This document shows, one piece after another, positions 10,687 through 56,792 of a stretch of 64,000 nt of DNA; within the stretch, counting starts at the first letter, position 1; each line of letters opens with the position of its first letter. Source of the DNA: a phage; the sequence record OZ346228.1. The stretch is one strand, 5' to 3'. A program made the translations under genes and the position numbers. A model generated the notes under the pieces. That model made no database searches. It was not told the origin of the DNA and saw only the letters and a list, made by a program, of their open reading frames with translations.

Positions 10687-10696
10687 GGAAGACTAG

Positions 10697-43300: not shown

Positions 43301-45948
43301 CATCCATGTCCATGCAAATTCCGGTAACAAACGGATACAAACGTGTTGTGATGATCATTAAGTGCGACCTGATAGGTAAACAAGTTCTTGCAGAAAACGG
43401 GACATCCACACATCCTTTTGAGATCGCTCTGCACTATCAGTTTGCTGACTCACCTTTTGCAGGGGATAAGAGAATATCTGATACAGACGCACAGCGTTGT
43501 AAGAAAGTATTGTTGGGTGCAGGTTGGTGGTGGTATGAGTTTGATTTAACAGACAAATTCACCGACACGTCTAAAGTTGTAACAGGACTTCGTCTAGACC
43601 TTGGCGAGAACATGCACAAAGCTGTTTGTGATGGCACCTATGGTGACCCTACAATATACCTAAAATATGTTTCTTTTGAGCATCCGGAAGATGTTGTCTA
43701 CGGTCCAAAACTGAGATTGTTTGGCAGCTGGATTGCAAAAGATAGGGTAGGCATGGGTAAGAAGGTAAGAGGGTTCTTGGTTGATGCAGGAACAGAAGAC
43801 ATGCTGGTTAATGCAGTATGGCCTGAATTACCTGGGACTCAGTGGGACAACTCAGCCAAATCTATAAACTGGTTTAACATTCATAGGGCCATGTGGACCA
43901 CTAACTGCTACTTGTGGAGAGAGCTTAACGATCAGGCCTTTGGATTCAGCGAGGGTAGAAGGATGGCGATCATTTGCTGGACAACACTGCAAAGATGTTA
44001 TGACCATGACTATGAGATTGGGGGCAGGGCATGGAAAAATATCAGGGATAGAATCATAACCAATTTTGCAGACGACAACGGTGGTGGAGCACATAACTTT
44101 GGCACAAGCCGACTCATCCATTTGAACGGATCCTCAGCCTACAAGAAAGAAGGTTACTCTGGGTCTATGATCGAGCGGGGTCTGGTGAAAGATGCTCGCG
44201 TATTGATGGGCCAGCAACTTGCTGCCGCAGTAGGTCCCAGCGCAGTGCAGTCGGTTAAACCAGCGTGGTTCGATATTCCATTGTGGTCACCCGGAACACC
44301 GGGAACTGCTGCAATCAACCCTACCACTGGGGATCTGGAAATCTCCTGGGAAGACCTGAAGCAGGTCGGTGGTTGGGACAAAACAGGGTATCAGGTTCAA
44401 TGGTGGAGGGCTGACGGATCTTTAGCCGCTGATGAGTTTGTTAAGGACAATTTCTACACTATGTCCTCTGCAAAAGCACAGCAATTATTTGGTCAGGCAA
44501 CTCCGTCAACGATCACCATGTCTATGTGCTGTAAAGACAACAGGACTGGAGCTTTGGGGCCAAGGGTTGCTAAAGTTTTCTCAGGTATTAAATGGAATCT
44601 ACCTGTCCAAAGTATTTCATGGAAGCAAATAGGTGATAACAAGCTGCTGGTTACCCCTGCCTGTCAGTTCAACGCAACTCTTAACGTTGATCCTGCTGTT
44701 GCGGCAAACTCAGCTAAAGCTTCTGACTTCTCTGTGTCTAACACTGCTATGGCAGATGTGAGGAAGATTGACACGCTGAACGCCAGAATTACCTGTAAAA
44801 ACACTTATGGCACATTCCAAATCATCAACAACTTCACAGATGCTGATTCTAAGGTAGTGAGGACAGCAAGCCAGACTCTGAGTTTAGGAACTCTGGCCTA
44901 TGCGGCCCTGATCACCGAACAGTCGGCAACACTCCAAGGAGGTGGTGTAGGCAAGTCCATTACAACACCTGTGTGGAAGCCAAATGAGTGGGTTGTGTTT
45001 GATTTGACTGTGGACTTCTCCAGCGATAATAACTGGACATGGGTAAGGAATTGTTTGTCACAGTTGATGGGCGGTCCAAGCTCCGTTAGTGATAGTCACG
45101 ACTCTACTGACCCGAGTGTGTTCCAGGTAGGTAAAACTCACCCAGAGACTGGAGAAACGTTGCCTGACAGGAAGTATGCTTTGGTTTGCATCTCTTACGG
45201 GAAGGCAGATGTCGCCTTCTCAGGGACACACACTTATAACGGAACCTACAACTTCTCAAGGAAGTATAGTCTCAAAGCAGGGAACATTATAGACGAGGTT
45301 GGTGCGCTGTATAATCCGGGCAACGGCATAGGGATTGTTGGTGGTAAACTGCAGATGCAGGAACCTTCTATTACCCCTTCCAACGTATCCGGGATTAGAA
45401 AGACTTGGGAAAGTAGTAATACCAACATTGCAACAGTGGATGCCACCACAGGACTGGTAACATTTAAAGCTACTGGGAATGTCACCATAAAGTTTGTAGT
45501 TACTGATGATGTAGGGCGCAAAACGTCTTCAACATCTTTTACTGTCAAACAGATGGCACCACAGTGGAGAATGTGGATAGGTACAGCAACAAACGGGGCA
45601 TACCCTAATCCGTCAGGTACTTCTGGTATGAAGACTTTCTCTACAAGCAAACCGATGGAGTACGGCAGCGGTCCTAAGGTAGGGCAGATGGTGTACTTTG
45701 GTGCGTATATTCCTGAAATTATAGGGCTTCCTAGAAGTCAGCTTCAGTTGCTGTTTGGGGCTGGTGTTGACGATCTTGCCACTTTCGGGTATAGCGACAA
45801 CATCGAGGCTGCAAGGAGTTCAGGATGGGTAGGGTTCAGAATGGAGTCTGGAAAGGAAGGCAGGATTCTAGGGACAGCCTCTATAGGTGTTATGTTCCCT
45901 GGTGACCAGCAGTATCGTCTAGAAGCCTACGCAACCTTTTCTCGTTAA
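40312..45948 (+). CDS. giant virion-associated protein with Ig-like domain(s)
   Basis: 1878-aa uninterrupted ORF; C-terminal region contains bacterial Ig-like motif (SNVSGIRKTWESSNTNIATVDATTGLVTFKATGNVTIKFVVTDDVGRKT); ends at bidirectional terminator. Confidence 0.5.
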   Translation: MLPIPLLKLGRHFLDKRGGIKELAVLSYPIDNSDGTSNTVSYVNSLAILFDDGQLNITGYNKFGECRTGDRSPINYPSETAWNVDHVWRADRAFVIRTFDNQFFYIGCTAGLIGSTAAGGNDVCVNEWTPLPEQIVKGLHLDTHPERLIEVMGGINNTVWVIAEAEGTGILNLYGSGNNTYGSLHVDKNQHATPVKIGETSENPETGPWKNPSINCEVHDNSVIFGGPRGFWIAGYDFLRNNSRNDLVWPPVQITRNDLRGIPADEEWKGFMCGPNGAVIATQRMHRPDDQQLVNVFYGQNIWGDDTWRELNITYTHEVMMARGYGTSGIFFNNGTKQYRGFSRNLCNDIGAQSANNSPRADFIHYQALATAKYVEQRLPVSWTESVYFQGIHREGFLGTFTVVNGKLWWSGIPRGSFTGSNNLFGGRLNSQGFTEVPENWYKNVPVDSWGVDDIFDVNGVSSVSNIYIGDTVKMKLKPQPEGATFIIDKIELVNAAGTVVTDANYQFSTNWNHGGANEVVVTQYNRNVNRRGLYSVKITYHDKHGTGRTHTTRTLNWNTIVPAYPSNGKWHTVGRNKQFHVNDTVYFGLNGTQPAVEGDTSYMVRLHRMDAGSVTYDVTQEIYDQRRATYDNIVKTQALWEFNPNGKGGKMLQVNEQNGTSLTVHEHPDPWPDPGKPHPGARTLKIVSHDAGYFGIRWEATVRYVDGTTNNIGITLGGTSEDSSLKIAYTPRGISIDNMDVVRNGYGDVNVKVTLGEHLGGERIIMYAFDHDPRTNGTYANQAWSYLINAPEPNTKEFYYGMKRDVCKKTGTHDWIAICVKDERTAWDEPVNRWFIGIPTRSDKYVAEYIVCMGGTNLNMCWNEDVNKYSDYDYMRDYSCNLWFNQTTGYPPRQARVNPAIFTDTQVFLTKQANEVQTFKNKYDPNKWFYNCYGAFFWGPGELPGGGSCLNEATYASDYIMGQVKKYKIIPGPETLGNAVDPYIIMTALRSNMDGTSMSMQIPVTNGYKRVVMIIKCDLIGKQVLAENGTSTHPFEIALHYQFADSPFAGDKRISDTDAQRCKKVLLGAGWWWYEFDLTDKFTDTSKVVTGLRLDLGENMHKAVCDGTYGDPTIYLKYVSFEHPEDVVYGPKLRLFGSWIAKDRVGMGKKVRGFLVDAGTEDMLVNAVWPELPGTQWDNSAKSINWFNIHRAMWTTNCYLWRELNDQAFGFSEGRRMAIICWTTLQRCYDHDYEIGGRAWKNIRDRIITNFADDNGGGAHNFGTSRLIHLNGSSAYKKEGYSGSMIERGLVKDARVLMGQQLAAAVGPSAVQSVKPAWFDIPLWSPGTPGTAAINPTTGDLEISWEDLKQVGGWDKTGYQVQWWRADGSLAADEFVKDNFYTMSSAKAQQLFGQATPSTITMSMCCKDNRTGALGPRVAKVFSGIKWNLPVQSISWKQIGDNKLLVTPACQFNATLNVDPAVAANSAKASDFSVSNTAMADVRKIDTLNARITCKNTYGTFQIINNFTDADSKVVRTASQTLSLGTLAYAALITEQSATLQGGGVGKSITTPVWKPNEWVVFDLTVDFSSDNNWTWVRNCLSQLMGGPSSVSDSHDSTDPSVFQVGKTHPETGETLPDRKYALVCISYGKADVAFSGTHTYNGTYNFSRKYSLKAGNIIDEVGALYNPGNGIGIVGGKLQMQEPSITPSNVSGIRKTWESSNTNIATVDATTGLVTFKATGNVTIKFVVTDDVGRKTSSTSFTVKQMAPQWRMWIGTATNGAYPNPSGTSGMKTFSTSKPMEYGSGPKVGQMVYFGAYIPEIIGLPRSQLQLLFGAGVDDLATFGYSDNIEAARSSGWVGFRMESGKEGRILGTASIGVMFPGDQQYRLEAYATFSR

Positions 45949-45966
45949 CAAGGGGATAAATAAAAA

Positions 45967-45991
45967 GGGGCCAAACGGCCCCTTTCTTTTT
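45967..45991. terminator. bidirectional rho-independent terminator
   Basis: GGGGCC-AAAC-GGCCCC flanked by A-run upstream and T-run downstream, between convergent operons. Confidence 0.7.
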
Positions 45992-45995
45992 ATAG

Positions 45996-46196
45996 TTAGT
46001 AATACTCCCAACATGCCCCATCTTCAGACGGCTTGACGCGCTTACCTTTATGGTCAACATAGGTATAGCCACAACCTTCACAAATAACAGGTGCTGCATA
46101 GCCTTCCTTCCACTGATCCTCAGTGATCAGACCTTCCAAATCTTTGCAGTCAAAGCCAAACAACTCTTCAGAGCAATCTTTACAAAAATCAGCCAT
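45996..46196 (-). CDS. small Cys-rich zinc-ribbon-like protein
   Basis: 66 aa with paired Cys motifs (CKDC, CEGCG); last gene of reverse-strand island before the bidirectional terminator. Confidence 0.4.
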   Translation of the reverse strand: MADFCKDCSEELFGFDCKDLEGLITEDQWKEGYAAPVICEGCGYTYVDHKGKRVKPSEDGACWEYY

Positions 46197-46199
46197 TTC

Positions 46200-46664
46200 T
46201 CAGTCCTCGCATTTAACAAATTTTTCTATAGATCCACCAAGCACAGCTTGTTGTTTGATGGCACTTTCTTCATCATAGTGGATAGACTTATGTTCCGTAC
46301 CTCCAAACTTACCTGTGTGGAAGGTGTGCACCCAAATCTCTTTAGGAAGGGATTTATTCTCTTCCTCCACCAACTCCCACATACCCCACAAGTGATCTGT
46401 GATATCTCTGATGAAATATCCCTCGCCGAGGTTTGTATTCACACTGTAAGCTGATTCGTGATCTCCGCAAATATAACGGAAGGCAGTGTACTCTTTACCT
46501 GGTGTGAAGTGAGTATCCATTAGTATGGCTGTTAAAGAATAAGGGTCTCGAAAGCCCAAGAACTTTAGTTTAACAATTTCGACATTTACATCTGCAAGAT
46601 TATCCATGACGATCTCCTCTGTTTGGTTGGTGAGAATTATATATAGATCTGGTGGTGGCGTCAA
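46200..46664 (-). CDS. hypothetical protein
   Basis: 154-aa ORF, tightly spaced with neighbours on the reverse strand. Confidence 0.4.
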   Translation of the reverse strand: MTPPPDLYIILTNQTEEIVMDNLADVNVEIVKLKFLGFRDPYSLTAILMDTHFTPGKEYTAFRYICGDHESAYSVNTNLGEGYFIRDITDHLWGMWELVEEENKSLPKEIWVHTFHTGKFGGTEHKSIHYDEESAIKQQAVLGGSIEKFVKCED

Positions 46665-46768
46665 GCTTAATTTTAAGAGATCTGAGAGGGTATTTTATTC
46701 AGGAAGGCAATCGCACAGGGTGGAGAAATTTATGAAGGCACAGGCCTCGTTTGAGGCCTTAAATTCTA

Positions 46769-47149
46769 TTATGACACTTTGACATAGCGCTCTGACAAAG
46801 CTGGGAAGCCAAAAGTAGTGCCTATACTACCATAGGCTATCCACCATTGGAGTTCATCGTGACACCATTTTCCGATCAGGAAGGTGCTGGGATAGCGGGT
46901 CAGTATTTTGGCATAAGCTTTAGGATCTGCATCTTCTGGGATAATGATGCTTGGAATATCTTTGTTATGACCACAGCAGCAGTTTAGCGTTTTCAAACCT
47001 GCTGCCCACAAACTCATGATAGGCTTAGCCATACACTTATCAAGGCACACACGTTTTTTGCCGTCACGAAGATTTTTAGGCACATCAACGATAACATTTG
47101 GATGCTTGGCACCTTTTACTTTCCAATTATAGGATTTACACTTGCACAT
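46769..47149 (-). CDS. Cys-rich hypothetical protein
   Basis: 126 aa with CKCK and NCCCGH clusters suggesting metal binding. Confidence 0.4.
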   Translation of the reverse strand: MCKCKSYNWKVKGAKHPNVIVDVPKNLRDGKKRVCLDKCMAKPIMSLWAAGLKTLNCCCGHNKDIPSIIIPEDADPKAYAKILTRYPSTFLIGKWCHDELQWWIAYGSIGTTFGFPALSERYVKVS

Positions 47150-47199
47150 TTAATCAGTCTCCGTCTAGAAAGCCGCACTATACGTTTTTGAGGTATACT

Positions 47200-47370
47200 T
47201 TACTTAAAGTCTTTATCACCTGCCACGATTGCATGAATCCACTCATTGTGATGCTCAATAGCGGTGAGATGTAACATGATGTAGTGATCGTCATTGCCAA
47301 ACATGATATGATAGGCTTTGGCAGCATTTTGATATAACTTCCACATCAGGTAATGATATCTTCGCCTCAT
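47200..47370 (-). CDS. small hypothetical protein (56 aa)
   Basis: ORF below the 60-aa track cutoff, read from reverse complement (MRRRYHYLMWKLYQ...GDKDFK); fills an otherwise gene-free 226-bp gap. Confidence 0.25.
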   Translation of the reverse strand: MRRRYHYLMWKLYQNAAKAYHIMFGNDDHYIMLHLTAIEHHNEWIHAIVAGDKDFK

Positions 47371-47375
47371 GGCTC

Positions 47376-47846
47376 TTACTCCGGTTCAGGATCTGGGTAA
47401 TCTTCAATAATAAAGGGCCATCCGTTCCGCTTAGCCTCAGACTTATACTCAATCTCCTTCATTGCAAACTCTAACTGATTCTTAGCCGGAATACATGCCG
47501 GAGAATCATCAATCCAGATATCTGGGTAGATATCAAACTGCGCCAGGTAGGCTGCCTTCTGAACACCACCTGTGTAGAACACACCAACATCGAGCTCCTT
47601 GCGCCAATACTCAATGTCTACATTGTCTTGAGTAATGAATCGGAAAGTCACAAGGTAGACTGTCCACCCCTCCTTCTTCAGATCCCTGATCAGGCGGGAG
47701 AAGATGAAAGGGCTCGCATTAAACGTTCCATCAAAGTCGATGGCAATGATGTGCGTGCCGTGGCGAGTCTCATATGGATTGCTCGTGGTAAGATTGCTGT
47801 AATTAAAAGGGACTTCTTCCCCGCAGTAGCTGTAGTCCATATTCAC
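47376..47846 (-). CDS. HAD-superfamily phosphatase-like protein
   Basis: 156 aa; HAD motif I IAIDFDGT and motif IV-like IWIDDSP. Confidence 0.55.
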   Translation of the reverse strand: MNMDYSYCGEEVPFNYSNLTTSNPYETRHGTHIIAIDFDGTFNASPFIFSRLIRDLKKEGWTVYLVTFRFITQDNVDIEYWRKELDVGVFYTGGVQKAAYLAQFDIYPDIWIDDSPACIPAKNQLEFAMKEIEYKSEAKRNGWPFIIEDYPDPEPE

Positions 47847-48118
47847 ACCTTCTCGTTGATAAATTTACGGGCGGTTTGGTGAGTTGTTTCTGCTGTCTTC
47901 AGAATGATATTAATTTTATCGTCAAGATCATTCATCTCGGCAGTTAATTCAGGAATCTCTCCGGCATGCATGGTGAAATCATACATAGACATGCCCAAGA
48001 TCTCATTGATGCGGCGGTTGCATTCTGCAGCACGCTGGTTCATTTTCCAAGCTAACACCAAAGCCTCCTGCGTAGCCTCTAGTGCAAAATCTAATACGTC
48101 GGCCTCTTCTTTCGTCAT
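47843..48118 (-). CDS. hypothetical helical protein
   Basis: 91 aa; start overlaps upstream stop; RBS AGGAGAG on reverse strand. Confidence 0.4.
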   Translation of the reverse strand: MTKEEADVLDFALEATQEALVLAWKMNQRAAECNRRINEILGMSMYDFTMHAGEIPELTAEMNDLDDKINIILKTAETTHQTARKFINEKV

Positions 48119-48175
48119 CTTAGTCTCTCCTGTTGTATTGTTGGTAGGTGTATGAATACCTTATAACTCACCTTT

Positions 48176-48742
48176 TTATTCAAACTGCAATAGTAAGTCC
48201 ACCACCGCGCTAGGTCTGTCAACAAATTCCCCAGGTCCACATGCCCACAGAGGGTATCCGTCTACATACCGCCAAATCCAACCTGCAGTGTGGAGTTCGA
48301 GCAGGGCAGTACCGTCCTTACTGTCAACCACTCTTTCCCACAGTGTCGGGCAGCGAAGCTTGAGGATCGGATCCCCTCCCTTATACCCATCCATGTAGAT
48401 ACCCATTGCAAAGTTCAGCATCATCTTTTTGTGCACTGATCTTTTACTGAGGGTACTCATCACTTCCTCTTTGTGAATGTTTGTAAGCTTCTCCTTGGCT
48501 ACCCGCAGATCGTTGCAACCATTGTTCAGCAGATCTTCCAGACACTTGATCCGAAGGTCGTGAATGTCTTTGTCGTGTACCGTTGGCACAGGGTCGTAGC
48601 GGTATAGCACTGTTGATACAAGGTTGCTCGGGTGTGGGTCTGACAGCAACCCATAACCCCAATACTCTTCTGTATCTGAAAGGACAAGACACCCAATGTC
48701 TCTGTCAAGCTTTCCTGTGTTGTAAGCCACATTGACCGCCAT
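48176..48742 (-). CDS. hypothetical protein
   Basis: 188-aa ORF within reverse-strand operon. Confidence 0.4.
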   Translation of the reverse strand: MAVNVAYNTGKLDRDIGCLVLSDTEEYWGYGLLSDPHPSNLVSTVLYRYDPVPTVHDKDIHDLRIKCLEDLLNNGCNDLRVAKEKLTNIHKEEVMSTLSKRSVHKKMMLNFAMGIYMDGYKGGDPILKLRCPTLWERVVDSKDGTALLELHTAGWIWRYVDGYPLWACGPGEFVDRPSAVVDLLLQFE

Positions 48743-48744
48743 GA

Positions 48745-48990
48745 CTATAGCTCCACTAGCAAAGTGCTTTCAAAGTGACGTTCATGCAGACCGTTGTAAG
48801 GGACCACTTCCACAACGCCATCACGGACATATGGGGCCATCATGGTGGTATAATCTCCAAACGGGTTGGTATTGTCACTAACCACAACCACCTTCTGCCC
48901 TTCCTTGGCAGAGTGCCAAATAGATCTGCACTTCATCAGGTGTTCGAGAGCCCCAGGTAAAATTTTGTTACGTTCTTTACGGGTCTTCAT
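48745..48990 (-). CDS. small hypothetical protein (possibly related to the small paralog family)
   Basis: 81 aa; contains G-x-KVVVV..D hydrophobic beta-like core similar to the 49453..50480 paralogs. Confidence 0.35.
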   Translation of the reverse strand: MKTRKERNKILPGALEHLMKCRSIWHSAKEGQKVVVVSDNTNPFGDYTTMMAPYVRDGVVEVVPYNGLHERHFESTLLVEL

Positions 48991-49436
48991 AACAGGTATA
49001 GCTCCTTATGAAAGTGATCTTTTAATTTCTCACTGAGAAACTTCTTGATACCTTCCTCTAAAGTGTTTTCGATGTAGTCCAGCTTAACTGCTTCGATGGA
49101 CATATCATAGATCGCCAGCTCTAAGCTGTCAAGTCCCATCATAGCATGAACCATAAGATTTTCATCTTCAGATACATTCAGGGGACTTCCTATAACATCT
49201 GGAGGCAGAATAGTTTCCCAATTATTCTGGGTGGTAGTTCTCCCTCCCTCTACTTTACGGCGCAGTTCGAATGTGTTCTTAGTGTAGAACACTTCATAAG
49301 AAACGATACGACTGTCGCTCTCGTAATAAACGAAGTTCAGGTAGGAGCCTAGCCGCAGTCGGCAAACTTCTACCCCAAACCATTGTTTCTTATAAGAATT
49401 CAGGCTAATGCTGTCGCATTCACGTTTGCTCAACAC
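48987..49436 (-). CDS. hypothetical protein
   Basis: 149-aa ORF overlapping neighbour by 4 nt. Confidence 0.4.
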   Translation of the reverse strand: MLSKRECDSISLNSYKKQWFGVEVCRLRLGSYLNFVYYESDSRIVSYEVFYTKNTFELRRKVEGGRTTTQNNWETILPPDVIGSPLNVSEDENLMVHAMMGLDSLELAIYDMSIEAVKLDYIENTLEEGIKKFLSEKLKDHFHKELYLL

Positions 49437-49452
49437 GGCTCTCTCCTTTTTG

Positions 49453-49689
49453 TTAATCTTCGTAAATCAGGATTTCTGCTTTAGGTTTTCGTGCTTTCAT
49501 GTCCAGCTCTATCCAGTGCACCATAGCTGTTTCAAGAAAAACAGCCTGGATGCATCCGTCCTCAGCAGCGTGTCCTAGCAGCATAACAAGATCTTCTCCT
49601 TCGTCATCTGCACCACGAACATACAGAATCTCCCCGGGTTCAAAATCTTTAACAACCTGATTGTTGGATAATTTACGAATTTTCGCCAT
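49453..49689 (-). CDS. small paralog family member 4
   Basis: 78 aa; shares K-rich N-terminus, PG[TE]-hydrophobic motif (EPGEILYV) and acidic C-terminus with the three upstream 87-aa genes. Confidence 0.5.
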   Translation of the reverse strand: MAKIRKLSNNQVVKDFEPGEILYVRGADDEGEDLVMLLGHAAEDGCIQAVFLETAMVHWIELDMKARKPKAEILIYED

Positions 49690-49690
49690 A

Positions 49691-49954
49691 TTAGAAACCC
49701 TCTAAAAAGCTCTTGTAGAAAATAATTTCAGTATCTACACCAGTCACGATCTTATCGTTCCTGATTTCATCTGTAAGGTAGGTGTCAAAACGCAGAACCT
49801 GTGTGGTGTTGTCACACATCCACTCAGCTGTGACCATTGCGAAAATCTTAGCATCTTCATTATCTGGTGTGAATGTTACCACCTCACCGCACTTAAACTT
49901 TTCGATAGGCTGAGTGTTAGCTTTCGGTTCTGCGATAGTGATTTTTGTGGTCAT
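49691..49954 (-). CDS. small paralog family member 3
   Basis: 87 aa; motif KCGEVVTF; tandem with members 1, 2 and 4. Confidence 0.5.
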   Translation of the reverse strand: MTTKITIAEPKANTQPIEKFKCGEVVTFTPDNEDAKIFAMVTAEWMCDNTTQVLRFDTYLTDEIRNDKIVTGVDTEIIFYKSFLEGF

Positions 49955-50217
49955 TATTCTCCTCCTTCTTTTGAATAGCTTGTCTCTCCAAGGATGGTAA
50001 TTTTGGTGTCAAGCTCTGTAACTTTCATGTTTGGCGGCAGATCGTACAACTCATTATTTTCTAAATCGAACCCCCACACACAATGTTCTCCTGTTTTGAC
50101 AATCATAACTATGTTTTGAATGCCGTCTCCGTCGCAACTTACCACAGTCCCACACGGAAAGCTGTCTGCACGCTTTTTGTTCTTCACCTTAGAATTGAAT
50201 ACAATGCTGGTAGCCAT
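49954..50217 (-). CDS. small paralog family member 2
   Basis: 87 aa; motif PCGTVVSC; stop/start overlap with neighbours. Confidence 0.5.
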   Translation of the reverse strand: MATSIVFNSKVKNKKRADSFPCGTVVSCDGDGIQNIVMIVKTGEHCVWGFDLENNELYDLPPNMKVTELDTKITILGETSYSKEGGE

Positions 50218-50480
50218 TATTGTTCCTCCACCATAACTTCGCCAATAATTTCTATGCAGGCATCCATTTCTGTAACAACCAAACTGTGAGGTAGTTCTAC
50301 AAACACCTTTCTGAACAGGTCAAATACCCCAACATATATGTTTGCAGGATGTGATTTTACAACAAGTGCTGTATTCACATCCCCAAGTTCATCAACAAAC
50401 ATCACCACAGTGCCTGGAGCTACTGAGGACAGATACTTCTTAGTTTTACGGTTTGATGCAAATTTTAACTCTGTTGCCAT
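50217..50480 (-). CDS. small paralog family member 1
   Basis: 87 aa; motif APGTVVMFVD; first of four tandem same-length genes directly downstream of the metallopeptidase-VWA gene. Confidence 0.5.
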   Translation of the reverse strand: MATELKFASNRKTKKYLSSVAPGTVVMFVDELGDVNTALVVKSHPANIYVGVFDLFRKVFVELPHSLVVTEMDACIEIIGEVMVEEQ

Positions 50481-50495
50481 AAATAACCTCCTCTC

Positions 50496-51977
50496 TTACT
50501 TAGCGTACTCGATTAATTCCACAGTTTTACCAAAGCTCGGGATATAATTTTTATTATACCCCTCAGTGAGGACCCATAGAGTATCGTACTTTTTCCACTT
50601 GTTGTCAACAACCTTTTGTTCAAAGTTATGCTCAAAGTATAGGTCGGTCAGGACGATGACATCTTTTGCATTAGGTATGTTGGCATCCAGATACTCGAAC
50701 ACGCAAGCAGCTGTTGTGCCCCATGTTGAGTGGACCTCATAGTTGATCATCTCGTCTATGTTGCCGCGAGTGTATACTTTAACCTCTCCAACCTCAGTTG
50801 ACCAACAGAACATTGTAACCTTAAACTCTTTATACAGATTGCACAATCCGGTGATTTCATTGAACATTTTCTTTAAAGTTCTTTGAGAGATCGAGCCAGA
50901 AACGTCTAAAGCCACCACAATATCTATAGTGTTTTCCGGATTACGACCAGGAACAATAACGTGCTGGTTCTTGTTTATAGCCCCAACTTTTCGCATTGTG
51001 CTGGTCAAAGACCCAGATCGGCGACCAGGTTTTCTGTAGGTCAGTTCGGCCTTTCTTTTAGACAACATACGTTGCTTAATGATGTCTATATAGTTGATTA
51101 CAGGCTTACCTCTGTTCTTGACAAACTCACGCACCGCCTCAGGGCAACGGCCTCCGGACGCTTGCATTGCTGCCTCCAGCATATCACCAGAGTCCTGCAT
51201 GGCCTGATCTTTATCAGATTGGCTGATTACAGGTTGTGGCTGATCATACCCCATAGCCTTTCCAAGATTATCACTGGTGCCACCGTTCCCACTCATGTGA
51301 TCATCGGTTTGTCGCTTATCACTTTGAGAGTTCTCACCTTTACCGTTCTTACTTTTACCGTTATTCTGATCTCTTTGCTTATCAAGAACTGCATAAACGT
51401 TCTCAGCAATCCATCCATGAAACTTCATGTCGCAGTAGCAGCTGGCTAAGAAGCCAAAAGGCTTACCTTTCATGAACGTAGTGCTTTTCCCCTTCGGGAA
51501 GAAAACACAAGGGGGTTTGCTAAAGTCAACCACAAGGCCTGTGTTGATAACGTGATCACAAGCAATATTGAACAGTTCCGGCTCAAAGCTTTTACCACGG
51601 ACTAGGTGATCACAGATAATATGCCCCACCTCATGTGACAGAAGGAAGGCCACCTCTTTCACAGATTTTGGGGAATAGAAAACTTCAGCCATCTCAAACT
51701 GCTCGTCAGTTAGAGAAGCCTTAAGAATAGCCTTGCGCTCATCAGCCAATCCCATAATGAACTCAGGACTGTAATAGATGCGTTTATGGTCGGTTGCCAT
51801 GGTGGAGCACCATGTGTGGTTTTCTACGAACTGCAACCCTGACAGTAGTGTGCCATAAAACGGCAGCTTTTCAAGGAGATACATACGTGCAGCCTGCAAC
51901 ATTCTCAGGGCATCATCTTTCTGCGAGGCAATGATTTCTGAACTTCTGCTATCCATTAAAACTCCAGAAGGGGCCAT
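50496..51977 (-). CDS. putative zinc metallopeptidase domain + von Willebrand factor A (VWA) domain protein
   Basis: 493 aa; HExxH motif (HEVGHIICDH) in N-terminal half, Gly/Ser/Asp-rich linker, C-terminal MIDAS-like motif DIVVALDVSGS. Confidence 0.7.
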   Translation of the reverse strand: MAPSGVLMDSRSSEIIASQKDDALRMLQAARMYLLEKLPFYGTLLSGLQFVENHTWCSTMATDHKRIYYSPEFIMGLADERKAILKASLTDEQFEMAEVFYSPKSVKEVAFLLSHEVGHIICDHLVRGKSFEPELFNIACDHVINTGLVVDFSKPPCVFFPKGKSTTFMKGKPFGFLASCYCDMKFHGWIAENVYAVLDKQRDQNNGKSKNGKGENSQSDKRQTDDHMSGNGGTSDNLGKAMGYDQPQPVISQSDKDQAMQDSGDMLEAAMQASGGRCPEAVREFVKNRGKPVINYIDIIKQRMLSKRKAELTYRKPGRRSGSLTSTMRKVGAINKNQHVIVPGRNPENTIDIVVALDVSGSISQRTLKKMFNEITGLCNLYKEFKVTMFCWSTEVGEVKVYTRGNIDEMINYEVHSTWGTTAACVFEYLDANIPNAKDVIVLTDLYFEHNFEQKVVDNKWKKYDTLWVLTEGYNKNYIPSFGKTVELIEYAK

Positions 51978-51989
51978 CGGCCCCTGTCA

Positions 51990-53030
51990 TTATTTAACGT
52001 GTTTGAAAATACCTGCCAACTCGGTCATTGTCATGCGGGTGGTCTTCATAAGATCTGTCATAGCTTTCTCCATAATTGGAGATACTACCATAAAGTTTCC
52101 TTTAGTGAAACCTTTATTCCAGTCGGTCACCAACAGGGGTTTAAGTCCAGCTCCAAGACGTTCACCAGTTAAAGCACAGCATTTGCGAATATACGAACTC
52201 TTAAATTGGCTGAACGACAGATCAACTTTCATACCTACATCGTAGAACGTTTGACAATAGAAAGTGTAAGCTTTGGCAATCTCAACATCATCAGGTAGTG
52301 CAGGAACCTCTTCTGTAAGCTCCTCTTCGACCTCCTGAGTCTCTTTTTCCTCTTCATGCACCTGTTGCGTCATTTCTTCAATCTCTTCTGTGATAGGCTC
52401 GTTTACAATGTCGGAAATGTGCTTCTTGGGTGCACGATAAGTAACTTTAGACATCGGTAGCATATCTTCCTCCTCTTCTTCGTCAAAGAGTGCTAGTTTA
52501 TCCTCTTCCGTTCCATATTGCAAGATGAAATCTTCAAAAGTATAATCACCTTTCAATTTCTCCATACGCTCTTCGCTCAGGTGGAGCATCATCTGCTGGA
52601 CAATTTTTCGATCAGTTTCGTCTTTAATCAAGACTGCAGTCTTTTTATCTACCAGACAGTCCTTTAGAGAGTTGCATCTCAATCCCACCACACAACAGTT
52701 ATCAACCGCATAAGGACCTTCATCATCTATCCGCTCCAGAGATGGGTAGAAAGGATTCCCCAGCCCGTTTTCATCTGTGTGCATGTCAAAAGGTATAAGG
52801 GTATAGTCGCATACTCCATCTCCTAAAAGTTTTTTACCAAATAGGAGGTATTCTTCCCATGACAGGTCGAACTCTATATCTCGTTTCCGTGCGTTATTCT
52901 GTTTGCGTCTATATTTTTTGAGCAAGCGCTCTAACTCTTCTGGTGTATAATATTTTTCAAGATTCATGAGTCGTCTCTCGTGCTCTGTAAGTGAAGAAAT
53001 CGTATCAATTGTCTCAACAGATGTCAACAT
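51990..53030 (-). CDS. tandem His-Me-finger (HNH-like) endonuclease-domain protein
   Basis: ATG at 53030 (track starts at TTG 53033); first domain C.Y..PSLERIDDEGPYAVDNCCVVGLRCNSLK; degenerate second copy ALTGERL..LLVTDWNKGFTKGNFMVV; acidic linker between. Confidence 0.45.
   Translation of the reverse strand: MLTSVETIDTISSLTEHERRLMNLEKYYTPEELERLLKKYRRKQNNARKRDIEFDLSWEEYLLFGKKLLGDGVCDYTLIPFDMHTDENGLGNPFYPSLERIDDEGPYAVDNCCVVGLRCNSLKDCLVDKKTAVLIKDETDRKIVQQMMLHLSEERMEKLKGDYTFEDFILQYGTEEDKLALFDEEEEEDMLPMSKVTYRAPKKHISDIVNEPITEEIEEMTQQVHEEEKETQEVEEELTEEVPALPDDVEIAKAYTFYCQTFYDVGMKVDLSFSQFKSSYIRKCCALTGERLGAGLKPLLVTDWNKGFTKGNFMVVSPIMEKAMTDLMKTTRMTMTELAGIFKHVK
52431..52459. repeat. 29-bp inverted repeat, left copy (reverse complement of TACCGATGTCTAAAGTTACTTATCGTGCA)
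   Basis: Reverse complement of 52431..52459 matches 54293..54321 exactly; lies in linker of tandem-HNH-like gene. Confidence 0.85.
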
Positions 53031-53040
53031 CAAAAACGTG

Positions 53041-53069
53041 TTGACTTTACTCTAACTCCACAATATAGT
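53041..53069 (+). promoter_or_regulatory. sigma70-like promoter for + early operon
   Basis: TTGACT, 17-nt spacer, TATAGT; in divergent region between 53030 (-) and 53110 (+) gene starts. Confidence 0.5.
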
Positions 53070-53109
53070 GCACCCATTCGAAAGAAAACTAACATAGGAG
53101 CACTTACTT

Positions 53110-54913: not shown

Positions 54914-55294
54914 ATGGCTCAGTGGAAGACGACAGTTGACCTTCATGATCAGTGGTTAGGACGCATCACTGAAGACGGGAAGCTAGTGGAGTGGGACAAT
55001 AAGCATGTTAGCGAGTTGGCAAGTATTGTGGCTGGCAAGTTACGCTCCAAGTTCCCTGAACAACTGGATCCTGATAGTTCAAAGTTCGATCCTGAGTTGG
55101 AGGATGTTGTATACTACTTCGATACCGTGGATGACTACGATGCGTGGTTTGCAGCACGGGAGCTTTACCCACAAGGCTCTGCTATGCGCCAGATGGAAGA
55201 AGATTATCCTCCGTGTGAGCAATTCAATAGTGCAATGACTTGCCTCTATGATTGGGCAGATAAGAACCTTGTCTGGATTCGGACTGCATTTTAG
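54914..55294 (+). CDS. hypothetical protein
   Basis: 126-aa ORF in tightly packed + operon. Confidence 0.4.
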   Translation: MAQWKTTVDLHDQWLGRITEDGKLVEWDNKHVSELASIVAGKLRSKFPEQLDPDSSKFDPELEDVVYYFDTVDDYDAWFAARELYPQGSAMRQMEEDYPPCEQFNSAMTCLYDWADKNLVWIRTAF

Positions 55295-55338: not shown

Positions 55339-55608
55339 ATGTTATACCAGCAATATGAACTTCGTGCAGAAAAAGAGTTAAATTTTGACAAAGATATTCA
55401 CAGATATTATTATGGGAAAGTTAGAGGGCAAGCAAGAAAGTGTACTCCAACACTCTTTTATGCCAGCAGACGACTAGCGCCAGAAGAGGCAACAGCAGAA
55501 AGGGTTGCGTACAACTGGAGAGTCACGTATGATATTGACAGATTCGATGTGATATCTGTTTTGGAAAACTTTGAAAACACTTACACACAAGTAGAGGACT
55601 TTTACTAA
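55339..55608 (+). CDS. small hypothetical protein
   Basis: 89 aa; RBS AAGGAG. Confidence 0.4.
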   Translation: MLYQQYELRAEKELNFDKDIHRYYYGKVRGQARKCTPTLFYASRRLAPEEATAERVAYNWRVTYDIDRFDVISVLENFENTYTQVEDFY

Positions 55609-56792
55609 TGTCAAGAAACGTATTCGAAAGTGGTCAAATCACTGTCCGTGAGTTGCCAGCTATTATTCAGTTTGCCCAACGTCATAGCCGATCTGTCCTA
55701 ATTTTGGGACCAATGGGTGTGGGTAAAAGCCAGGTGATGAAGCAGATCGCTGATAATATGTTCGGTGAGCGAGATGACAACCTTGTTGACGTGCGACTGT
55801 CAGATAAAGATCCTGCCGACTTATCTGGGCTACCTATCCCTGTAGAAGCGGATGGAACTACACGTACAGTGTTTGCAATTCCAGAATTTTGGCCTGCGGA
55901 TCCTGACTGGAGCGGAATTATCTTTCTGGATGAGCTCACTCATGCAGATAACTACCTGCAAAAGGTTGCAATGCAAATTATGCTTGACCACAAGTGCGGC
56001 ACCTATGCATTCCCTAAGGGTTCTGTTTTTGTGGCTGCGGGTAACCGTTCTACAGATGGTGCGGTTCTTTCGGCGCTCGAAGCCCCTCTGGCTAACCGTT
56101 TTATCATTGTAGAGGTTACAAGCAATGCAGAGGTGTTTATTGAGGACTACGCATTCCTCAACGGGGTTCACTCCTCTGTAATTGGGTATCTGAAAAGAGT
56201 TCCATCAGCTATTGATAATTATGAGGCTATGGCTGAGATTAATTGTCCATCTTTTGCCACACCACGATCTTGGGTTGCTGCATCTGACATCTTGCACGAT
56301 TTTGACAGCGGTATTATTTCTGACGCTATGGCCCGTGTTCTTCTGCAAGGTGCTATTGGTCACACTGCAGCGGTAGAGATCTGGACATACCACACCAAGA
56401 AACGCAATTTACCGGAAATCGGTCGGATTATGGCAGGTGGCTGCAAAGAATACGTAGGCCCTAAGCAGCCAGACATTTTGTGGATTCTTGGATCTGAAGG
56501 TTGTATCGCTATTCGTAATATGATGGAAAATGCAAGTATCTCAGACGAAGATCTTGTCAGCTGTGTGGCAAACTTCCTCGATTTCCTTTGGGAAAACTTC
56601 AAGGACGAGAACCGAGATTTTGTATTCTCAGTCTTTATGGCGATGATGAAACCTAATGCCTTAGGAAATGCCTTGCTTATCGGTAAAGGGCGTGACAAGA
56701 TTGTTGCTCAGCTGATCAAAGCATACCCAAACCTGATGAAGATTGTAAAAGAGTTTGGTGAAGAGTTTAGCGCCATTTTGGCTAAAGCTTAA
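55608..56792 (+). CDS. MoxR-like AAA+ ATPase
   Basis: 394 aa; Walker A GPMGVGKS, Walker B IIFLDELTHAD, sensor-like AAGNRS; MoxR/CbbQ-type architecture. Confidence 0.7.
   Translation: MSRNVFESGQITVRELPAIIQFAQRHSRSVLILGPMGVGKSQVMKQIADNMFGERDDNLVDVRLSDKDPADLSGLPIPVEADGTTRTVFAIPEFWPADPDWSGIIFLDELTHADNYLQKVAMQIMLDHKCGTYAFPKGSVFVAAGNRSTDGAVLSALEAPLANRFIIVEVTSNAEVFIEDYAFLNGVHSSVIGYLKRVPSAIDNYEAMAEINCPSFATPRSWVAASDILHDFDSGIISDAMARVLLQGAIGHTAAVEIWTYHTKKRNLPEIGRIMAGGCKEYVGPKQPDILWILGSEGCIAIRNMMENASISDEDLVSCVANFLDFLWENFKDENRDFVFSVFMAMMKPNALGNALLIGKGRDKIVAQLIKAYPNLMKIVKEFGEEFSAILAKA

What the first reader, a model, noticed from the sequence alone, without database searches (positions are those of the whole stretch)
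45996..53030. 7-kb reverse-strand accessory island between tail and replication modules
About fifteen short, tightly packed reverse-strand genes break an otherwise + strand genome. They include Cys-rich zinc-ribbon-like proteins, a HAD-type phosphatase (IAIDFDGT), the small-paralog array, the VWA-metallopeptidase and the tandem-HNH-like protein. Most have no motif I can place. Such islands in lytic phages often hold host-takeover and anti-defence functions, so this is the most likely location for an uncharacterised system.
Basis: inference. Interest (0 to 1): 0.65.

Follow-up and report, generated by a model that had tools for sequence, protein, structure and literature searches.

The report
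Early accessory operon of rV5-like phage
The reverse-strand block is real, but it is the already-described leftward transcription unit (rV5 genes 11-26) of an E. coli Vequintavirus: a mixed set of lab-dispensable accessory genes, not one new system, and only its VWA-metallopeptidase has experimental hints of a counter-defence role.

Summary
The window is Escherichia phage naswa (Vequintavirus, rV5-like; 100% identity). In detail: 15 tightly packed minus-strand genes (45996-52967, 95% coding) with reversed GC skew. They run from a near-consensus sigma-70 promoter (52999-53027) to a bidirectional terminator (45964-45985). This block equals rV5 "genes 11-26", described in 2013 as one of four transcription units. 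It is not a foreign or variable island: its GC content matches the flanks, and 113 of 122 related genomes carry it at 90% identity or more.

Contents:
- a protein with two degenerate, His-less HNH-like domains of the T4 Srd type
- a DUF2201 Zn-metallopeptidase/VWA protein with intact HExxH and MIDAS motifs
- three, possibly four, 87-aa paralogs, two of them (o12/o13) in a polymorphic slot
- a minimal HAD-motif phosphatase
- a 66-aa zinc ribbon shared with FelixO1- and T5-like phages
- eight lineage-restricted proteins of unknown function (six confined to the genus)

Published transposon data on the relative Bas54 show every island gene is dispensable on E. coli K-12. Only the metallopeptidase is significantly depleted on one clinical isolate. 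That is the same host where its presumed partner, the AAA+ "MoxR" ATPase on the divergent arm, is required against defence system DS-28.

Verdict: already known and only moderately interesting. The host-takeover/anti-defence reading is partly supported; "one uncharacterised system" is not.

The parts
45964..45985 (.). Bidirectional rho-independent terminator (AAAGGGGCC-loop-GGCCCCTTT) between the tail-fibre gene and the last island gene. It is T-rich on both strands.
   Evidence: [quoted passage not shown]
45996..46196 (-). o1: 66 aa, acidic, zinc-ribbon-like (C5xxC8 ... C39xxC42). Function unknown.
   Evidence: phrog_2210, E 1e-36, unknown function. Homologues at 60-72% identity in Felixounavirus and T5-like phages, 836 records. 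Cys positions. The Bas54 orthologue is non-essential.
46200..46607 (-). o2: 135 aa (annotated start), function unknown. It lies in the variable distal part of the unit.
   Evidence: phrog_15992. 76% identity in FV3, which has two extra genes here. Bas54 has two smaller genes at this position.
46636..46664 (-). Internal sigma-70-like promoter (TTGACG-17-TATAAT, 11/12) in the 161-nt gap upstream of o2.
   Evidence: PhagePromoter prediction at the same place in phage Gotham. Consensus match only; not shown to be active.
46769..47149 (-). o3: 126 aa, basic (net charge +10), 8 Cys including CCC57-59. Function unknown. Confined to Vequintavirus.
   Evidence: phrog_12958, unknown function. No Pfam, NCBIfam, PADLOC or PDB match. 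tblastn: 120 records, nearly all Vequintavirus.
47200..47370 (-). o4: 56 aa, His-rich, function unknown.
   Evidence: phrog_12006. No other match.
47376..47840 (-). o5: 154 aa, minimal capless HAD-type phosphatase candidate. Motifs: D35-x-D37-x-T39, T65, K95, D111-D112.
47843..48118 (-). o6: 91 aa, acidic, function unknown.
   Evidence: phrog_12604. Only a sub-threshold Pfam hit.
48176..48742 (-). o7: 188 aa, function unknown, confined to the genus.
   Evidence: phrog_12232. No other match.
48745..48990 (-). o8: 81 aa, function unknown. Overlaps o9 by 4 nt.
   Evidence: phrog_4868. Overlap.
48987..49436 (-). o9: 149 aa, soluble, restricted to Vequintavirinae. Possible accessory of the VWA-metallopeptidase.
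   Evidence: 25-28% identical homologues in Seunavirus and Mydovirus lie immediately downstream of, or overlapping, the VWA-metallopeptidase gene. Only one true homologue cluster among 1.84 billion representatives. Bas54 orthologue log2FC -2.28 on the clinical isolate, p 0.028, q 0.195, not significant. The 'tail protein' and 'holin' labels are unsupported: no TM segment and non-essential.
49453..49689 (-). o10: 78 aa, acidic. Possible fourth, very divergent member of the paralog array.
   Evidence: Profile E 0.07; alignment z-scores 3-5 to o11-o13. Alignment A1.
49691..49954 (-). o11: 87 aa, a distant paralog of o12/o13.
   Evidence: Profile E 1.4e-5. 98% identical in FV3.
49954..50217 (-). 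o12: 87 aa paralog (phrog_10698).
   Evidence: 36% identical to o13, E 1e-10. phrog_10698.
50217..50480 (-). o13: 87 aa paralog (phrog_10698). It sits in a polymorphic slot next to the metallopeptidase gene.
   Evidence: Among 118 Vequintavirus records the distribution is bimodal: 44 carry o13 at 90% identity or more and have two matching places per record (o13 plus o12); 74 have a single copy at about 38-41% identity. The flanking genes are 98% identical in FV3.
50496..51956 (-). o14: 486 aa DUF2201 protein, an N-terminal Zn-metallopeptidase (H108-E-x-x-H112) fused to a C-terminal VWA domain with a MIDAS site (D351-x-S353-G-S355, T414, D438).
   Evidence: Pfam DUF2201_N 4e-28 and DUF2201 6e-11. 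The motifs are invariant down to N4 gp25 at 25% identity. 621 phage records carry homologues. Bas54 orthologue: non-essential on K-12; log2FC -2.20, q 0.009 on the clinical isolate.
51969..51985 (-). GC-rich hairpin (AGGGGCC-GAT-GGCCCCT) between the o15 stop codon and the o14 ribosome-binding site. There is no T tract on the minus strand, so it may be an RNA processing or stability element.
   Evidence: Function not tested.
51990..52967 (-). o15: 325 aa, very acidic (net charge -23). Two Srd-type degenerate HNH-like domains (about residues 8-110 and 235-325) are joined by a Glu-rich linker. This is the first gene of the unit.
   Evidence: PHROG: phrog_3118 8e-113; phrog_4592 'decoy of host sigma70' 3e-15; phrog_1400 'Srd anti-sigma factor' 3e-10; endonuclease VII 1e-10. 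BLASTP to T4 Srd: N-domain E 3e-7, C-domain E 1e-3, both against the same Srd segment. In all five aligned sequences an E-R pair stands where I place the catalytic D-H of canonical HNH; that placement is my reading of the alignment, which contains no reference HNH sequence. rV5 gp11 was called a Srd homologue.
52999..53027 (-). Leftward sigma-70 promoter of the unit (TTGACA-17-TACGAT with an extended-10 TG).
   Evidence: Promoter predictions at the same place in Gotham. Bidirectional promoters are reported between rV5 genes 10 and 11.
53041..53069 (+). Divergent rightward sigma-70 promoter (TTGACT-17-TATAGT). The two -35 boxes form an inverted repeat at 53023-53045.
55608..56792 (+). AAA+ ATPase annotated as MoxR. 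It lies outside the island, on the divergent arm, and is the presumed partner of o14.
   Evidence: phrog_1297 2e-110, the same family as N4 gp24. 27% identity and E 3e-28 to N4 gp24, which is adjacent to the DUF2201 protein gp25. Conserved at 50-53% identity in Seunavirus and Mydovirus. The Bas54 orthologue is required against DS-28. Pfam gives only AAA_14 at 4e-4, below the cut-off.

Best explanation
Identity of the region. This is the leftward transcription unit of a Vequintavirus (phage naswa), equal to rV5 genes 11-26. Host RNA polymerase most likely starts at a near-consensus sigma-70 promoter (52999-53027), back-to-back with the rightward promoter. It would read 15 genes to a bidirectional terminator at 45964-45985, with a possible second start upstream of o2. 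Early timing is inferred, not shown.

What the products are. They are soluble, mostly acidic proteins that the phage does not need in a laboratory host. They form a collection of separate host-interaction accessories, not one machine. The likely roles are:
1. o15 carries two catalytically dead HNH-like domains of the T4 Srd type. By analogy it binds a host RNA-metabolism or transcription factor (T4 Srd binds and stimulates RNase E) to speed host shut-off. This is inferred.
2. o14 is an active-looking Zn-metallopeptidase fused to a VWA/MIDAS domain. It probably works with the AAA+ MoxR-like ATPase encoded 3.6 kb away on the divergent arm. In this model the MIDAS site grips a target, the ATPase remodels it and the peptidase cuts it. 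The target is probably a host immunity component, because the ATPase is required against defence system DS-28 and o14 mutants are depleted on the same host. The pairing is inferred from conserved gene association. The target and the proteolysis are not shown. o9 may be an accessory of this pair.
3. o10-o13 are small acidic paralogs, with o12/o13 in a slot that has two deeply diverged allelic states. They are probably binders or inhibitors of variable host proteins. This is speculative.
4. o5 is a capless HAD-type phosphatase, probably acting on nucleic-acid ends or nucleotides. This is inferred from motifs.
5. The remaining genes are ORFans restricted to the genus, or broadly shared in the case of o1, and have no assignable role.
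For: - Identity and prior description: 100% match to MN850595; annotation; rV5 transcription units and the Srd call.
- Unit boundaries: promoters and terminator; 95% coding density and skew reversal.
- Heterogeneity: only o15, o14, o9 and o5 have homologues in Seunavirus and Mydovirus. No Pfam, NCBIfam or PADLOC family for 13 of 15 genes.
- Dispensability: all Bas54 orthologues are non-essential on K-12, one with reduced fitness.
- Srd link. Srd function.
- ATPase/VWA pair: Pfam and motifs. The ATPase is homologous to N4 gp24, which is adjacent to DUF2201 gp25. The divergent arrangement is kept in three genera. The same pair was noted in jumbo phages.
- Counter-defence hint: MoxR log2FC -7.23 and knockout sensitive to DS-28; metallopeptidase -2.20 at q 0.009; intervening genes unaffected, which argues against polarity.
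- o9 adjacency to the VWA gene in other genera.
- Paralogs and bimodal alleles.
- HAD.
- All products lack TM segments.
Against: - No transcript data exist for any Vequintavirus in the searched literature. Timing and operon structure rest on consensus matches.
- The metallopeptidase effect is moderate. It is one of 27 significant genes in that comparison, and the preprint validates the ATPase, not the peptidase. The data sheets also carry a strain-label discrepancy.
- The much weaker phenotype of o14 relative to the ATPase means the ATPase must have at least one o14-independent role.
- The window ATPase is not recognised as MoxR-class by Pfam.
- The Srd similarity covers only the N-domain at 24% identity, and the architecture differs. 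Srd-like mutants show no phenotype in Bas54 (log2FC -0.08).
- HAD assignment fails every HMM library, and the fold matches are not significant on their own.
- The structure prediction of o15 failed.
Confidence: 0.6

Rival explanations
1. The AAA+/VWA-metallopeptidase pair, and perhaps o9 (annotated 'tail protein'), is a morphogenesis chaperone-protease that helps assemble or process virion proteins. This was proposed for the same pair in jumbo phages and shown for a MoxR-VWA system in the archaeal virus ATV. On this view the island sits next to the tail module for that reason.
For: Iyer et al. 2021 propose this role. The island abuts the tail-fibre genes. o9 homologues are labelled 'tail protein' in several records and in phrog_6790.
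Against: - In Bas54 the ATPase, the metallopeptidase and o9 all tolerate insertions at 91-94% of TA sites on K-12, while true structural genes are essential.
- The ATPase becomes essential only on a host, or a plasmid, carrying DS-28.
- The genes sit behind sigma-70-type promoters together with a Srd-like gene, not in the late structural operon.
- The 'tail protein' label has no supporting evidence that I could find.
Confidence: 0.1
2. The block is an ordinary nucleic-acid metabolism and homing-endonuclease cluster. On this view o15 and o14 are HNH endonucleases, as RefSeq and PHROG label them, and o5 is a polynucleotide kinase/phosphatase for RNA repair.
For: 'HNH endonuclease' labels in RefSeq FV3, Murica and SSE121 and in PHROG. 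o15 matches endonuclease and endonuclease VII PHROGs at 1e-13 and 1e-10. o5 is labelled polynucleotide kinase in some records and resembles the T4 PNK phosphatase domain in fold searches.
Against: - o14 is unambiguously DUF2201 metallopeptidase plus VWA, so the HNH label is an annotation error.
- In both o15 domains, and in T4 Srd, the position I assign to the HNH catalytic His is occupied by E-R or lost. No Pfam HNH model matches.
- o15 is syntenic and single-copy in all relatives, unlike mobile homing endonucleases.
- o5 has no kinase domain.
Confidence: 0.1
3. All fifteen genes form one coherent, novel multi-gene anti-defence or takeover system.
For: Tight packing, a common orientation and apparently one main promoter and terminator. 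Conservation as a block within the genus.
Against: - Only four genes persist in sister genera, and the rest are replaced by unrelated genes.
- Gene content varies at two spots within the genus.
- Transposon phenotypes differ gene by gene, and 14 of 15 show none.
- The one functional link points outside the block, to the ATPase.
Confidence: 0.05
4. The block is a horizontally acquired mobile island, or moron cluster, inserted between the tail and replication modules.
For: Opposite orientation to the flanks. Some members (o1; the extra FV3 genes similar to T4-like phage proteins) are shared with unrelated phage groups.
Against: GC content is indistinguishable from the flanks. There is no integrase, transposase, flanking repeat, tRNA or other structured RNA. 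The promoter-proximal synteny, including the divergent ATPase arm, is ancestral to at least three genera.
Confidence: 0.05

Closest known systems
rV5 transcription unit 'genes 11-26' (Kropinski et al. 2013, PMC3606486) and its orthologues in more than 100 deposited Vequintavirus genomes
   Same: It is the same locus. The gene order matches. There are bidirectional promoters at the gene 10/11 boundary and a bidirectional terminator at the gene 26/27 boundary. The first gene is called a Srd homologue.
   Different: Phage naswa (species V. murica) carries two copies (o12 and o13) in the polymorphic paralog slot, where rV5 and FV3 carry one divergent copy. It also lacks the two extra distal genes of FV3.
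T4 Srd (stimulator of host RNase E; earlier postulated to be a sigma-70/sigma-S decoy)
   Same: The N-terminal domain is homologous (PHROG 3e-15 and 3e-10; BLASTP 3e-7), with a shared C..Y..F..E-R-x-D..Y..N..N signature. The gene is the first in a sigma-70-driven unit of a lytic myovirus.
   Different: o15 has a second, more degenerate copy of the domain and a roughly 100-residue Glu-rich linker. It lacks similarity to the C-terminal half of Srd. Identity is only 24%. No RNase E interaction has been tested. The Bas54 orthologue has no fitness phenotype.
MoxR AAA+ ATPase / VWA cofactor pairs, specifically the DUF2201 metallopeptidase-VWA type (N4 gp24/gp25; group 2.2 jumbo phages; bacterial homologues)
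   Same: The two Pfam domains are the same. HExxH and MIDAS are invariant. The ATPase belongs to the same PHROG as N4 gp24. Co-occurrence is conserved.
   Different: Here the two genes are not adjacent or co-transcribed. They sit on opposite arms of a divergent promoter, 3.6 kb apart. The Vequintavirinae peptidase has lineage-specific inserts. The only functional data point to counter-defence, not the assembly role proposed for jumbo phages.
Capless (C0) HAD phosphatases such as the T4 polynucleotide kinase 3'-phosphatase domain
Early host-takeover gene blocks of lytic coliphages (T4 immediate-early region around srd/modA/modB; T5 pre-early and T7 class I genes)
   Same: They are runs of small, acidic, non-essential genes behind host-type promoters, mixing takeover and counter-defence functions. 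This comparison rests on general knowledge.
   Different: Timing has not been measured here. Apart from Srd, no gene is shared with those blocks.

Membership tests
T4 Srd family | Significant sequence similarity to Srd | tested here: met
   phrog_4592 at 2.9e-15 and phrog_1400 at 2.9e-10. BLASTP to T4 Srd at E 3e-7, N-domain only, 24% identity.
T4 Srd family | Same domain architecture as Srd (one N-domain plus a helical C-terminal half, about 250 aa) | tested here: not met
   o15 has two N-type domains and an acidic linker. The C-terminal half of Srd does not align.
T4 Srd family | Binds the N-terminal half of RNase E and stimulates host mRNA decay | not testable with these tools
   The function is known for T4 Srd only. 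The Bas54 orthologue has no fitness phenotype.
HNH / His-Me finger nucleases | Profile match to an HNH or endonuclease VII family | tested here: inconclusive
   PHROG 'endonuclease' 1.2e-13 and 'endonuclease VII' 1e-10. No Pfam HNH hit even at E 5. No PDB sequence hit with single sequence or profile.
HNH / His-Me finger nucleases | Catalytic histidine (general base) in the first beta-hairpin | tested here: not met
   The position I assign to the catalytic D-H, by comparison with the HNH consensus recalled from memory (no reference HNH was in the alignment), is E-R in the N-domain of all four Vequintavirinae proteins and in T4 Srd. It is lost altogether in the C-domain.
HNH / His-Me finger nucleases | beta-beta-alpha metal-finger fold | tested here: inconclusive
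   The single-sequence AF2 model is unusable (pLDDT 34).
DUF2201 metallopeptidase-VWA (MoxR cofactor type) | Both Pfam domains above the gathering threshold | tested here: met
   DUF2201_N 99.1 bits (cut-off 23.2) and DUF2201 43 bits (cut-off 26.4).
DUF2201 metallopeptidase-VWA (MoxR cofactor type) | Intact HExxH zinc site and MIDAS (DxSxS...T...D) | tested here: met
   H108, E109, H112, D351, S353, S355, T414 and D438 are invariant from naswa to N4 gp25.
DUF2201 metallopeptidase-VWA (MoxR cofactor type) | Genomically associated AAA+ ATPase partner | tested here: met
   The ATPase at 55608-56792 is homologous to N4 gp24 (E 3e-28, same phrog_1297), which is adjacent to gp25. The association is kept in Seunavirus and Mydovirus. 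Here the two genes are divergent, not adjacent.
DUF2201 metallopeptidase-VWA (MoxR cofactor type) | Partner ATPase belongs to the MoxR (AAA_5) class | tested here: inconclusive
   The window ATPase hits only AAA_14 at 4e-4, below the cut-off. N4 gp24 hits AAA_5 at 5e-4, just below the cut-off. PDB hits cover the Walker A region only. The MoxR label comes from the depositors' annotation.
HAD phosphatase superfamily | Four catalytic motifs (DxDxT; S/T; K/R; DD or DxxxD) in order | tested here: met
   D35, D37, T39, T65, K95, D111 and D112 are invariant in 8 sequences of 39-98% identity.
HAD phosphatase superfamily | Rossmannoid fold with the motifs at the C-terminal ends of the strands | tested here: inconclusive
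HAD phosphatase superfamily | Match to a curated HAD HMM | tested here: not met
   No Pfam hit (E up to 5) and no NCBIfam hit. A profile against PDB gives only a HAD hydrolase at E 0.94.
Zinc ribbon | Two CxxC knuckles spaced by a beta-hairpin-sized segment | tested here: met
   o1 has C5xxC8 and C39xxC42. This is motif-level only, with no structure. o3 has 8 Cys but no canonical pair pattern, so it is inconclusive for o3.
Phage anti-defence gene (functional class) | Dispensable on a permissive host but required on a host carrying a given defence system | tested here: inconclusive
   Literature data for orthologues in Bas54: every island gene is non-essential on K-12. Only the metallopeptidase is depleted on the clinical isolate (q 0.009). 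Direct plating against DS-28 is reported for the ATPase, not for any island gene.
Horizontally acquired genomic island | Compositional deviation, mobility genes or repeats, or patchy presence among close relatives | tested here: not met
   GC is 0.435 against 0.44-0.45 in the flanks. No tandem repeats of note, no tRNA in five related loci and no Rfam match in the island. No integrase- or transposase-type Pfam match in any of the 15 proteins. Present in 113 of 122 relatives at 90% identity or more.

The most novel reading that the evidence does not exclude
The DUF2201 VWA-metallopeptidase (o14), the divergently encoded AAA+ MoxR-like ATPase and perhaps o9 form an ATP-driven, MIDAS-targeted protease. 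It would destroy or disable a component of the two-gene defence system DS-28. This would be a proteolytic, chaperone-assisted mode of phage counter-defence. Through N4 gp24/gp25 and the jumbo-phage homologues (621 phage records), it would be widespread.
Probability: 0.25. Interest if true: 0.65.

Novelty: already known. Interest (0 to 1): 0.3.

Why it matters
As a genome feature it adds nothing new. The locus is deposited, annotated and described as a transcription unit, and its recognisable parts belong to known families.

Its value is as a pointer. rV5-like phages are among the commonest broad-host-range coliphages used in therapy cocktails, yet nine of these fifteen genes have no assignable function. 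Three concrete, cheap hypotheses come out of this check:
1. The widespread phage AAA+/VWA-metallopeptidase pair is a counter-defence device rather than an assembly chaperone, with the peptidase and o9 as testable co-factors of the recently reported anti-DS-28 ATPase.
2. The Srd family includes a two-domain form.
3. A two-allele paralog slot next to the peptidase marks a likely arms-race locus.

The check also flags several misleading database labels that propagate through phage annotation: 'HNH endonuclease' and 'anti-sigma factor' for the metallopeptidase, and 'tail protein' and 'holin' for o9.

Tried and rejected
Searches that found nothing:
- NCBIfam and PADLOC scans of the island proteins: no hits.
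- Relaxed Pfam scan (E up to 5): nothing usable.
- phmmer or profile searches of o15, o14, o5 and o3 against PDB sequences: no meaningful hits.
- Rfam and tandem-repeat scans of the island: nothing.

Searches of limited value:
- The three word-indexed homologue searches (o13, o9, o5) returned almost only near-identical Vequintavirus proteins, so no deep alignments could be built.
- The exhaustive representative search for o9 found one real relative, which shows it is a lineage ORFan but gives no function.
- AF2 of o15 without an alignment failed (pLDDT 34), so the HNH fold could not be checked and no fold search was run on it.

Literature:
- No Vequintavirus transcriptome was found.
- CRISPRi-ART used the relative EdH4 only for capsid and rII targets.
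- The DRT10 paper concerns Bas52 gene 0087, outside the island.
- Qi et al. 2015 on Srd is not held in the library.

Readings rejected:
- Foreign island: the composition and synteny argue against it.
- A single 15-gene system.
- Active HNH nucleases.
- o9 as a holin or tail protein.
- A polar-effect explanation for the o14 phenotype: insertions in the genes between o14 and o9 are neutral.

Full report
**Identity of the window.** Megablast of 45900-53100 gives a 100% full-length match to Escherichia phage naswa (MN850595, Vequintavirus murica, an rV5-like myovirus). There are 122 matching phage records, and 113 of them cover at least 80% of the region at 90% identity or more. The deposited annotation lists 15 minus-strand genes here, naswa_71 to naswa_85. 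Thirteen are 'hypothetical' and two are 'anti-sigma factor'. Phages CarlMeissner and Gotham have the same layout.

**The observation.**
- The ORF list shows 15 consecutive minus-strand ORFs. With annotated starts they span 45996-52967 at 95% coding density. Gaps are mostly -4 to 16 nt; four larger gaps measure 161, 50, 57 and 33 nt.
- GC skew is -0.119 inside and +0.09/+0.12 outside. GC content itself (0.435) equals the flanks.
- Every long ORF elsewhere in the window that is not nested inside a longer + strand ORF is on the + strand.
- The description is therefore correct and not a chance pattern.
- Two corrections apply. The stated end (53030) comes from an over-long TTG ORF, and the real start is the ATG at 52967. 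The whole genome is not 'otherwise + strand', because rV5-type genomes have four transcription units.

**Boundaries.**
- A near-consensus leftward promoter (TTGACA-17-TACGAT with TG, 53027..52999) stands back-to-back with a rightward one (TTGACT-17-TATAGT, 53041-53069). Their -35 boxes form an inverted repeat.
- At the other end a perfect GC hairpin flanked by A and T runs (45964-45985) can terminate both the tail-fibre gene and the island.
- A further 11/12 promoter match lies in the 161-nt gap upstream of o2. It was also predicted in Gotham.
- The rV5 genome paper already defined 'genes 11-26' as one of four transcription units. [quoted passage not shown]
- No transcript data for this phage group turned up. 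'Early operon' therefore remains an inference.

**Gene by gene**

*o15 (51990-52967)*
- It matches PHROG families annotated HNH endonuclease, decoy of sigma-70, Srd anti-sigma factor and endonuclease VII.
- Direct BLASTP to T4 Srd aligns the N-domain at 24% identity (E 3e-7). The C-terminal domain of o15 aligns to the same Srd segment (E 1e-3).
- An alignment with FV3, SSE121, Seu621 and T4 Srd shows a shared C..Y..F..E-R-x-D..Y..N..N signature. An E-R pair stands where I place the catalytic D-H of canonical HNH (my reading; the alignment holds no reference HNH). The second domain is more degenerate still.
These are Srd-type, probably non-catalytic modules joined by a Glu-rich linker.
- T4 Srd binds the N-terminal half of RNase E and stimulates host RNA decay.
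- Pfam, PDB sequence searches and AF2 gave nothing further.

*o14 (50496-51956)*
- It is a DUF2201_N metallopeptidase plus a DUF2201 VWA domain.
- HExxH and the full MIDAS motif are invariant down to N4 gp25.
- Homologues occur in 621 phage records, including N4-like and jumbo phages.
- The labels 'HNH endonuclease' (RefSeq, PHROG) and 'putative anti-sigma factor' (naswa) are annotation errors.

*Paralog array (o10-o13)*
- o12 and o13 are clear paralogs (36% identity, E 1e-10).
- A profile adds o11 (E 1.4e-5) and marginally o10 (E 0.07).
- Among 118 Vequintavirus genomes the o12/o13 slot is bimodal. Forty-four carry o13 at 90% identity or more and have two matching places per record (o13 plus o12). 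Seventy-four carry one copy only about 40% identical.
- The neighbours are 98% identical in FV3.

*o5 (47376-47840)*
- It carries all four HAD motifs, invariant in homologues of 39-98% identity.
- A moderate AF2 model (core pLDDT 70-85) puts them at the expected strand ends.
- No HMM library recognises it.

*o1 (45996-46196)*
- It is a 66-aa CxxC...CxxC protein.
- It has 60-72% identical homologues in FelixO1-like and T5-like phages, 836 records in all.

*Remaining genes*
- o3 is basic, has 8 Cys and is confined to the genus.
- o2, o4, o6, o7 and o8 match only unknown-function PHROGs.
- No product has a TM segment.

**Conservation beyond the genus.**
- A tblastn matrix against FV3, Seunavirus SSE121 and Mydovirus Seu621 shows that only four island genes persist across genera: o15 (39%), o14 (44-45%), o9 (25-28%) and o5 (44-49%). 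On the other arm, a 126-aa protein and the ATPase (50-53%) also persist.
- In those genera the divergent layout is the same, and the o9 homologue lies immediately downstream of the metallopeptidase gene.
- The paralog array therefore looks like a Vequintavirus-specific insertion between o14 and o9.
- o9 has only one true relative cluster among 1.84 billion representative proteins.

**The partner ATPase.**
- The 394-aa ATPase at 55608-56792 is annotated MoxR. Pfam gives only a sub-threshold AAA hit.
- It is nevertheless 27% identical (E 3e-28) to N4 gp24 and belongs to the same PHROG.
- N4 gp24 is adjacent to gp25, a strong DUF2201 protein.
- Iyer et al. noted the same MoxR plus vWA-metallopeptidase pair in jumbo phages and proposed a role in virion assembly.

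**Experimental evidence from the literature.**
- The HIDEN-SEQ preprint mapped transposon insertions in Bas54, a Vequintavirus with the same island: genes 0042-0056, with matching gene lengths.
- All 15 genes are non-essential on K-12, and one shows reduced fitness.
- In the comparison with a clinical isolate, the MoxR ATPase has log2FC -7.23. The metallopeptidase has -2.20 (p 0.0009, q 0.009). The o9 orthologue has -2.28 (q 0.195, not significant). The Srd-like gene has -0.08. All other island genes are neutral, apart from the o10 orthologue at -1.32, which is also not significant.
- Insertions in two of the three genes between o14 and o9 (bas54_0053, 0054) are neutral, so polarity does not explain the o14 signal.
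- The authors show that the ATPase knockout is specifically sensitive to DS-28, a two-gene predicted defence system. They do not discuss the peptidase.
- Caveats: 27 genes are significant in that comparison. Two sheets carry identical numbers under different strain labels.

**Interpretation.** The block is best read as a sigma-70-driven accessory operon whose members act separately:
- a Srd-like takeover factor;
- the peptidase half of an AAA+/VWA-metallopeptidase device that probably serves counter-defence, perhaps together with o9;
- a polymorphic array of small acidic proteins;
- a minimal HAD phosphatase;
- ORFans.

The assembly-chaperone rival is weakened by dispensability on K-12. The nuclease rival is weakened by the apparent lack of a catalytic His and by the Pfam assignment of o14. 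The 'one system' and 'foreign island' readings are weakened by conservation patterns and composition.

**Novelty.** The locus and its transcription-unit status are already published, and the recognisable genes belong to known families. What is new here is modest:
- the link between the island's peptidase (and o9) and the reported anti-DS-28 ATPase;
- the two-domain Srd architecture;
- the bimodal paralog slot;
- several annotation corrections.

Interest is therefore low to moderate. The proteolytic counter-defence hypothesis is the one reading worth an experiment.

Noticed in passing
window 45900-53100 versus GenBank MG0656xx records: Sixteen records named 'Campylobacter phage' (host C. jejuni) are 90-99.7% identical to E. 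coli Vequintavirus across the island. The host label looks doubtful; contamination or mislabelling is possible.
   Followed up: no
window 45996-46196 (o1): This 66-aa CxxC...CxxC protein is unusually well conserved across unrelated virulent phage groups (Vequintavirus, Felixounavirus, T5-like) at 60-72% identity in 836 records. That suggests a strongly constrained, horizontally shared host-interaction module. It is non-essential in Bas54.
   Followed up: partly
window 53023-53045: The inverted repeat GTCAACA-N9-TGTTGAC spans the -35 hexamers of both divergent promoters. It could simply reflect two TTGAC boxes, or it could be a shared regulator site.
   Followed up: no
window 51969-51985: A GC-rich hairpin lies between the Srd-like gene's stop codon and the metallopeptidase ribosome-binding site, with no T tract on the coding strand. 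It may be a processing or stability element, or a partial attenuator.
   Followed up: no
window 50496-51956, 48987-49436 and 53110-54009: Database labels look wrong or unsupported. The DUF2201 metallopeptidase is called 'HNH endonuclease' (RefSeq, phrog_1314) or 'putative anti-sigma factor'. o9 is called 'tail protein' or 'putative holin' despite having no TM segment and being non-essential. The 299-aa 'alpha 1-3 fucosyltransferase' has no Pfam match.
   Followed up: partly
L009 (FV3) 10106-10926; Bas54 genes 0043/0044: The stretch between o3 and o1 is a second plastic spot. FV3 carries two extra genes similar to proteins of T4-like phages (Phi1, RB49). Bas54 has two small genes where naswa has o2. 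The spot lies just downstream of the internal promoter-like site.
   Followed up: partly
HIDEN-SEQ Extended Data Table 8, sheets S6/S7: The sheet titled 'K-12 vs CFE303' records a console command that uses the '311' data file. A later sheet shows identical numbers. The strain label of the resampling data is therefore ambiguous.
   Followed up: partly
window 54914-55294 (+ strand, 126 aa): This small acidic protein just upstream of the ATPase is the only other + arm gene conserved in Seunavirus and Mydovirus (33-37% identity). Its Bas54 orthologue shows no phenotype on the clinical isolate, so it is probably not part of the ATPase/peptidase function.
   Followed up: partly
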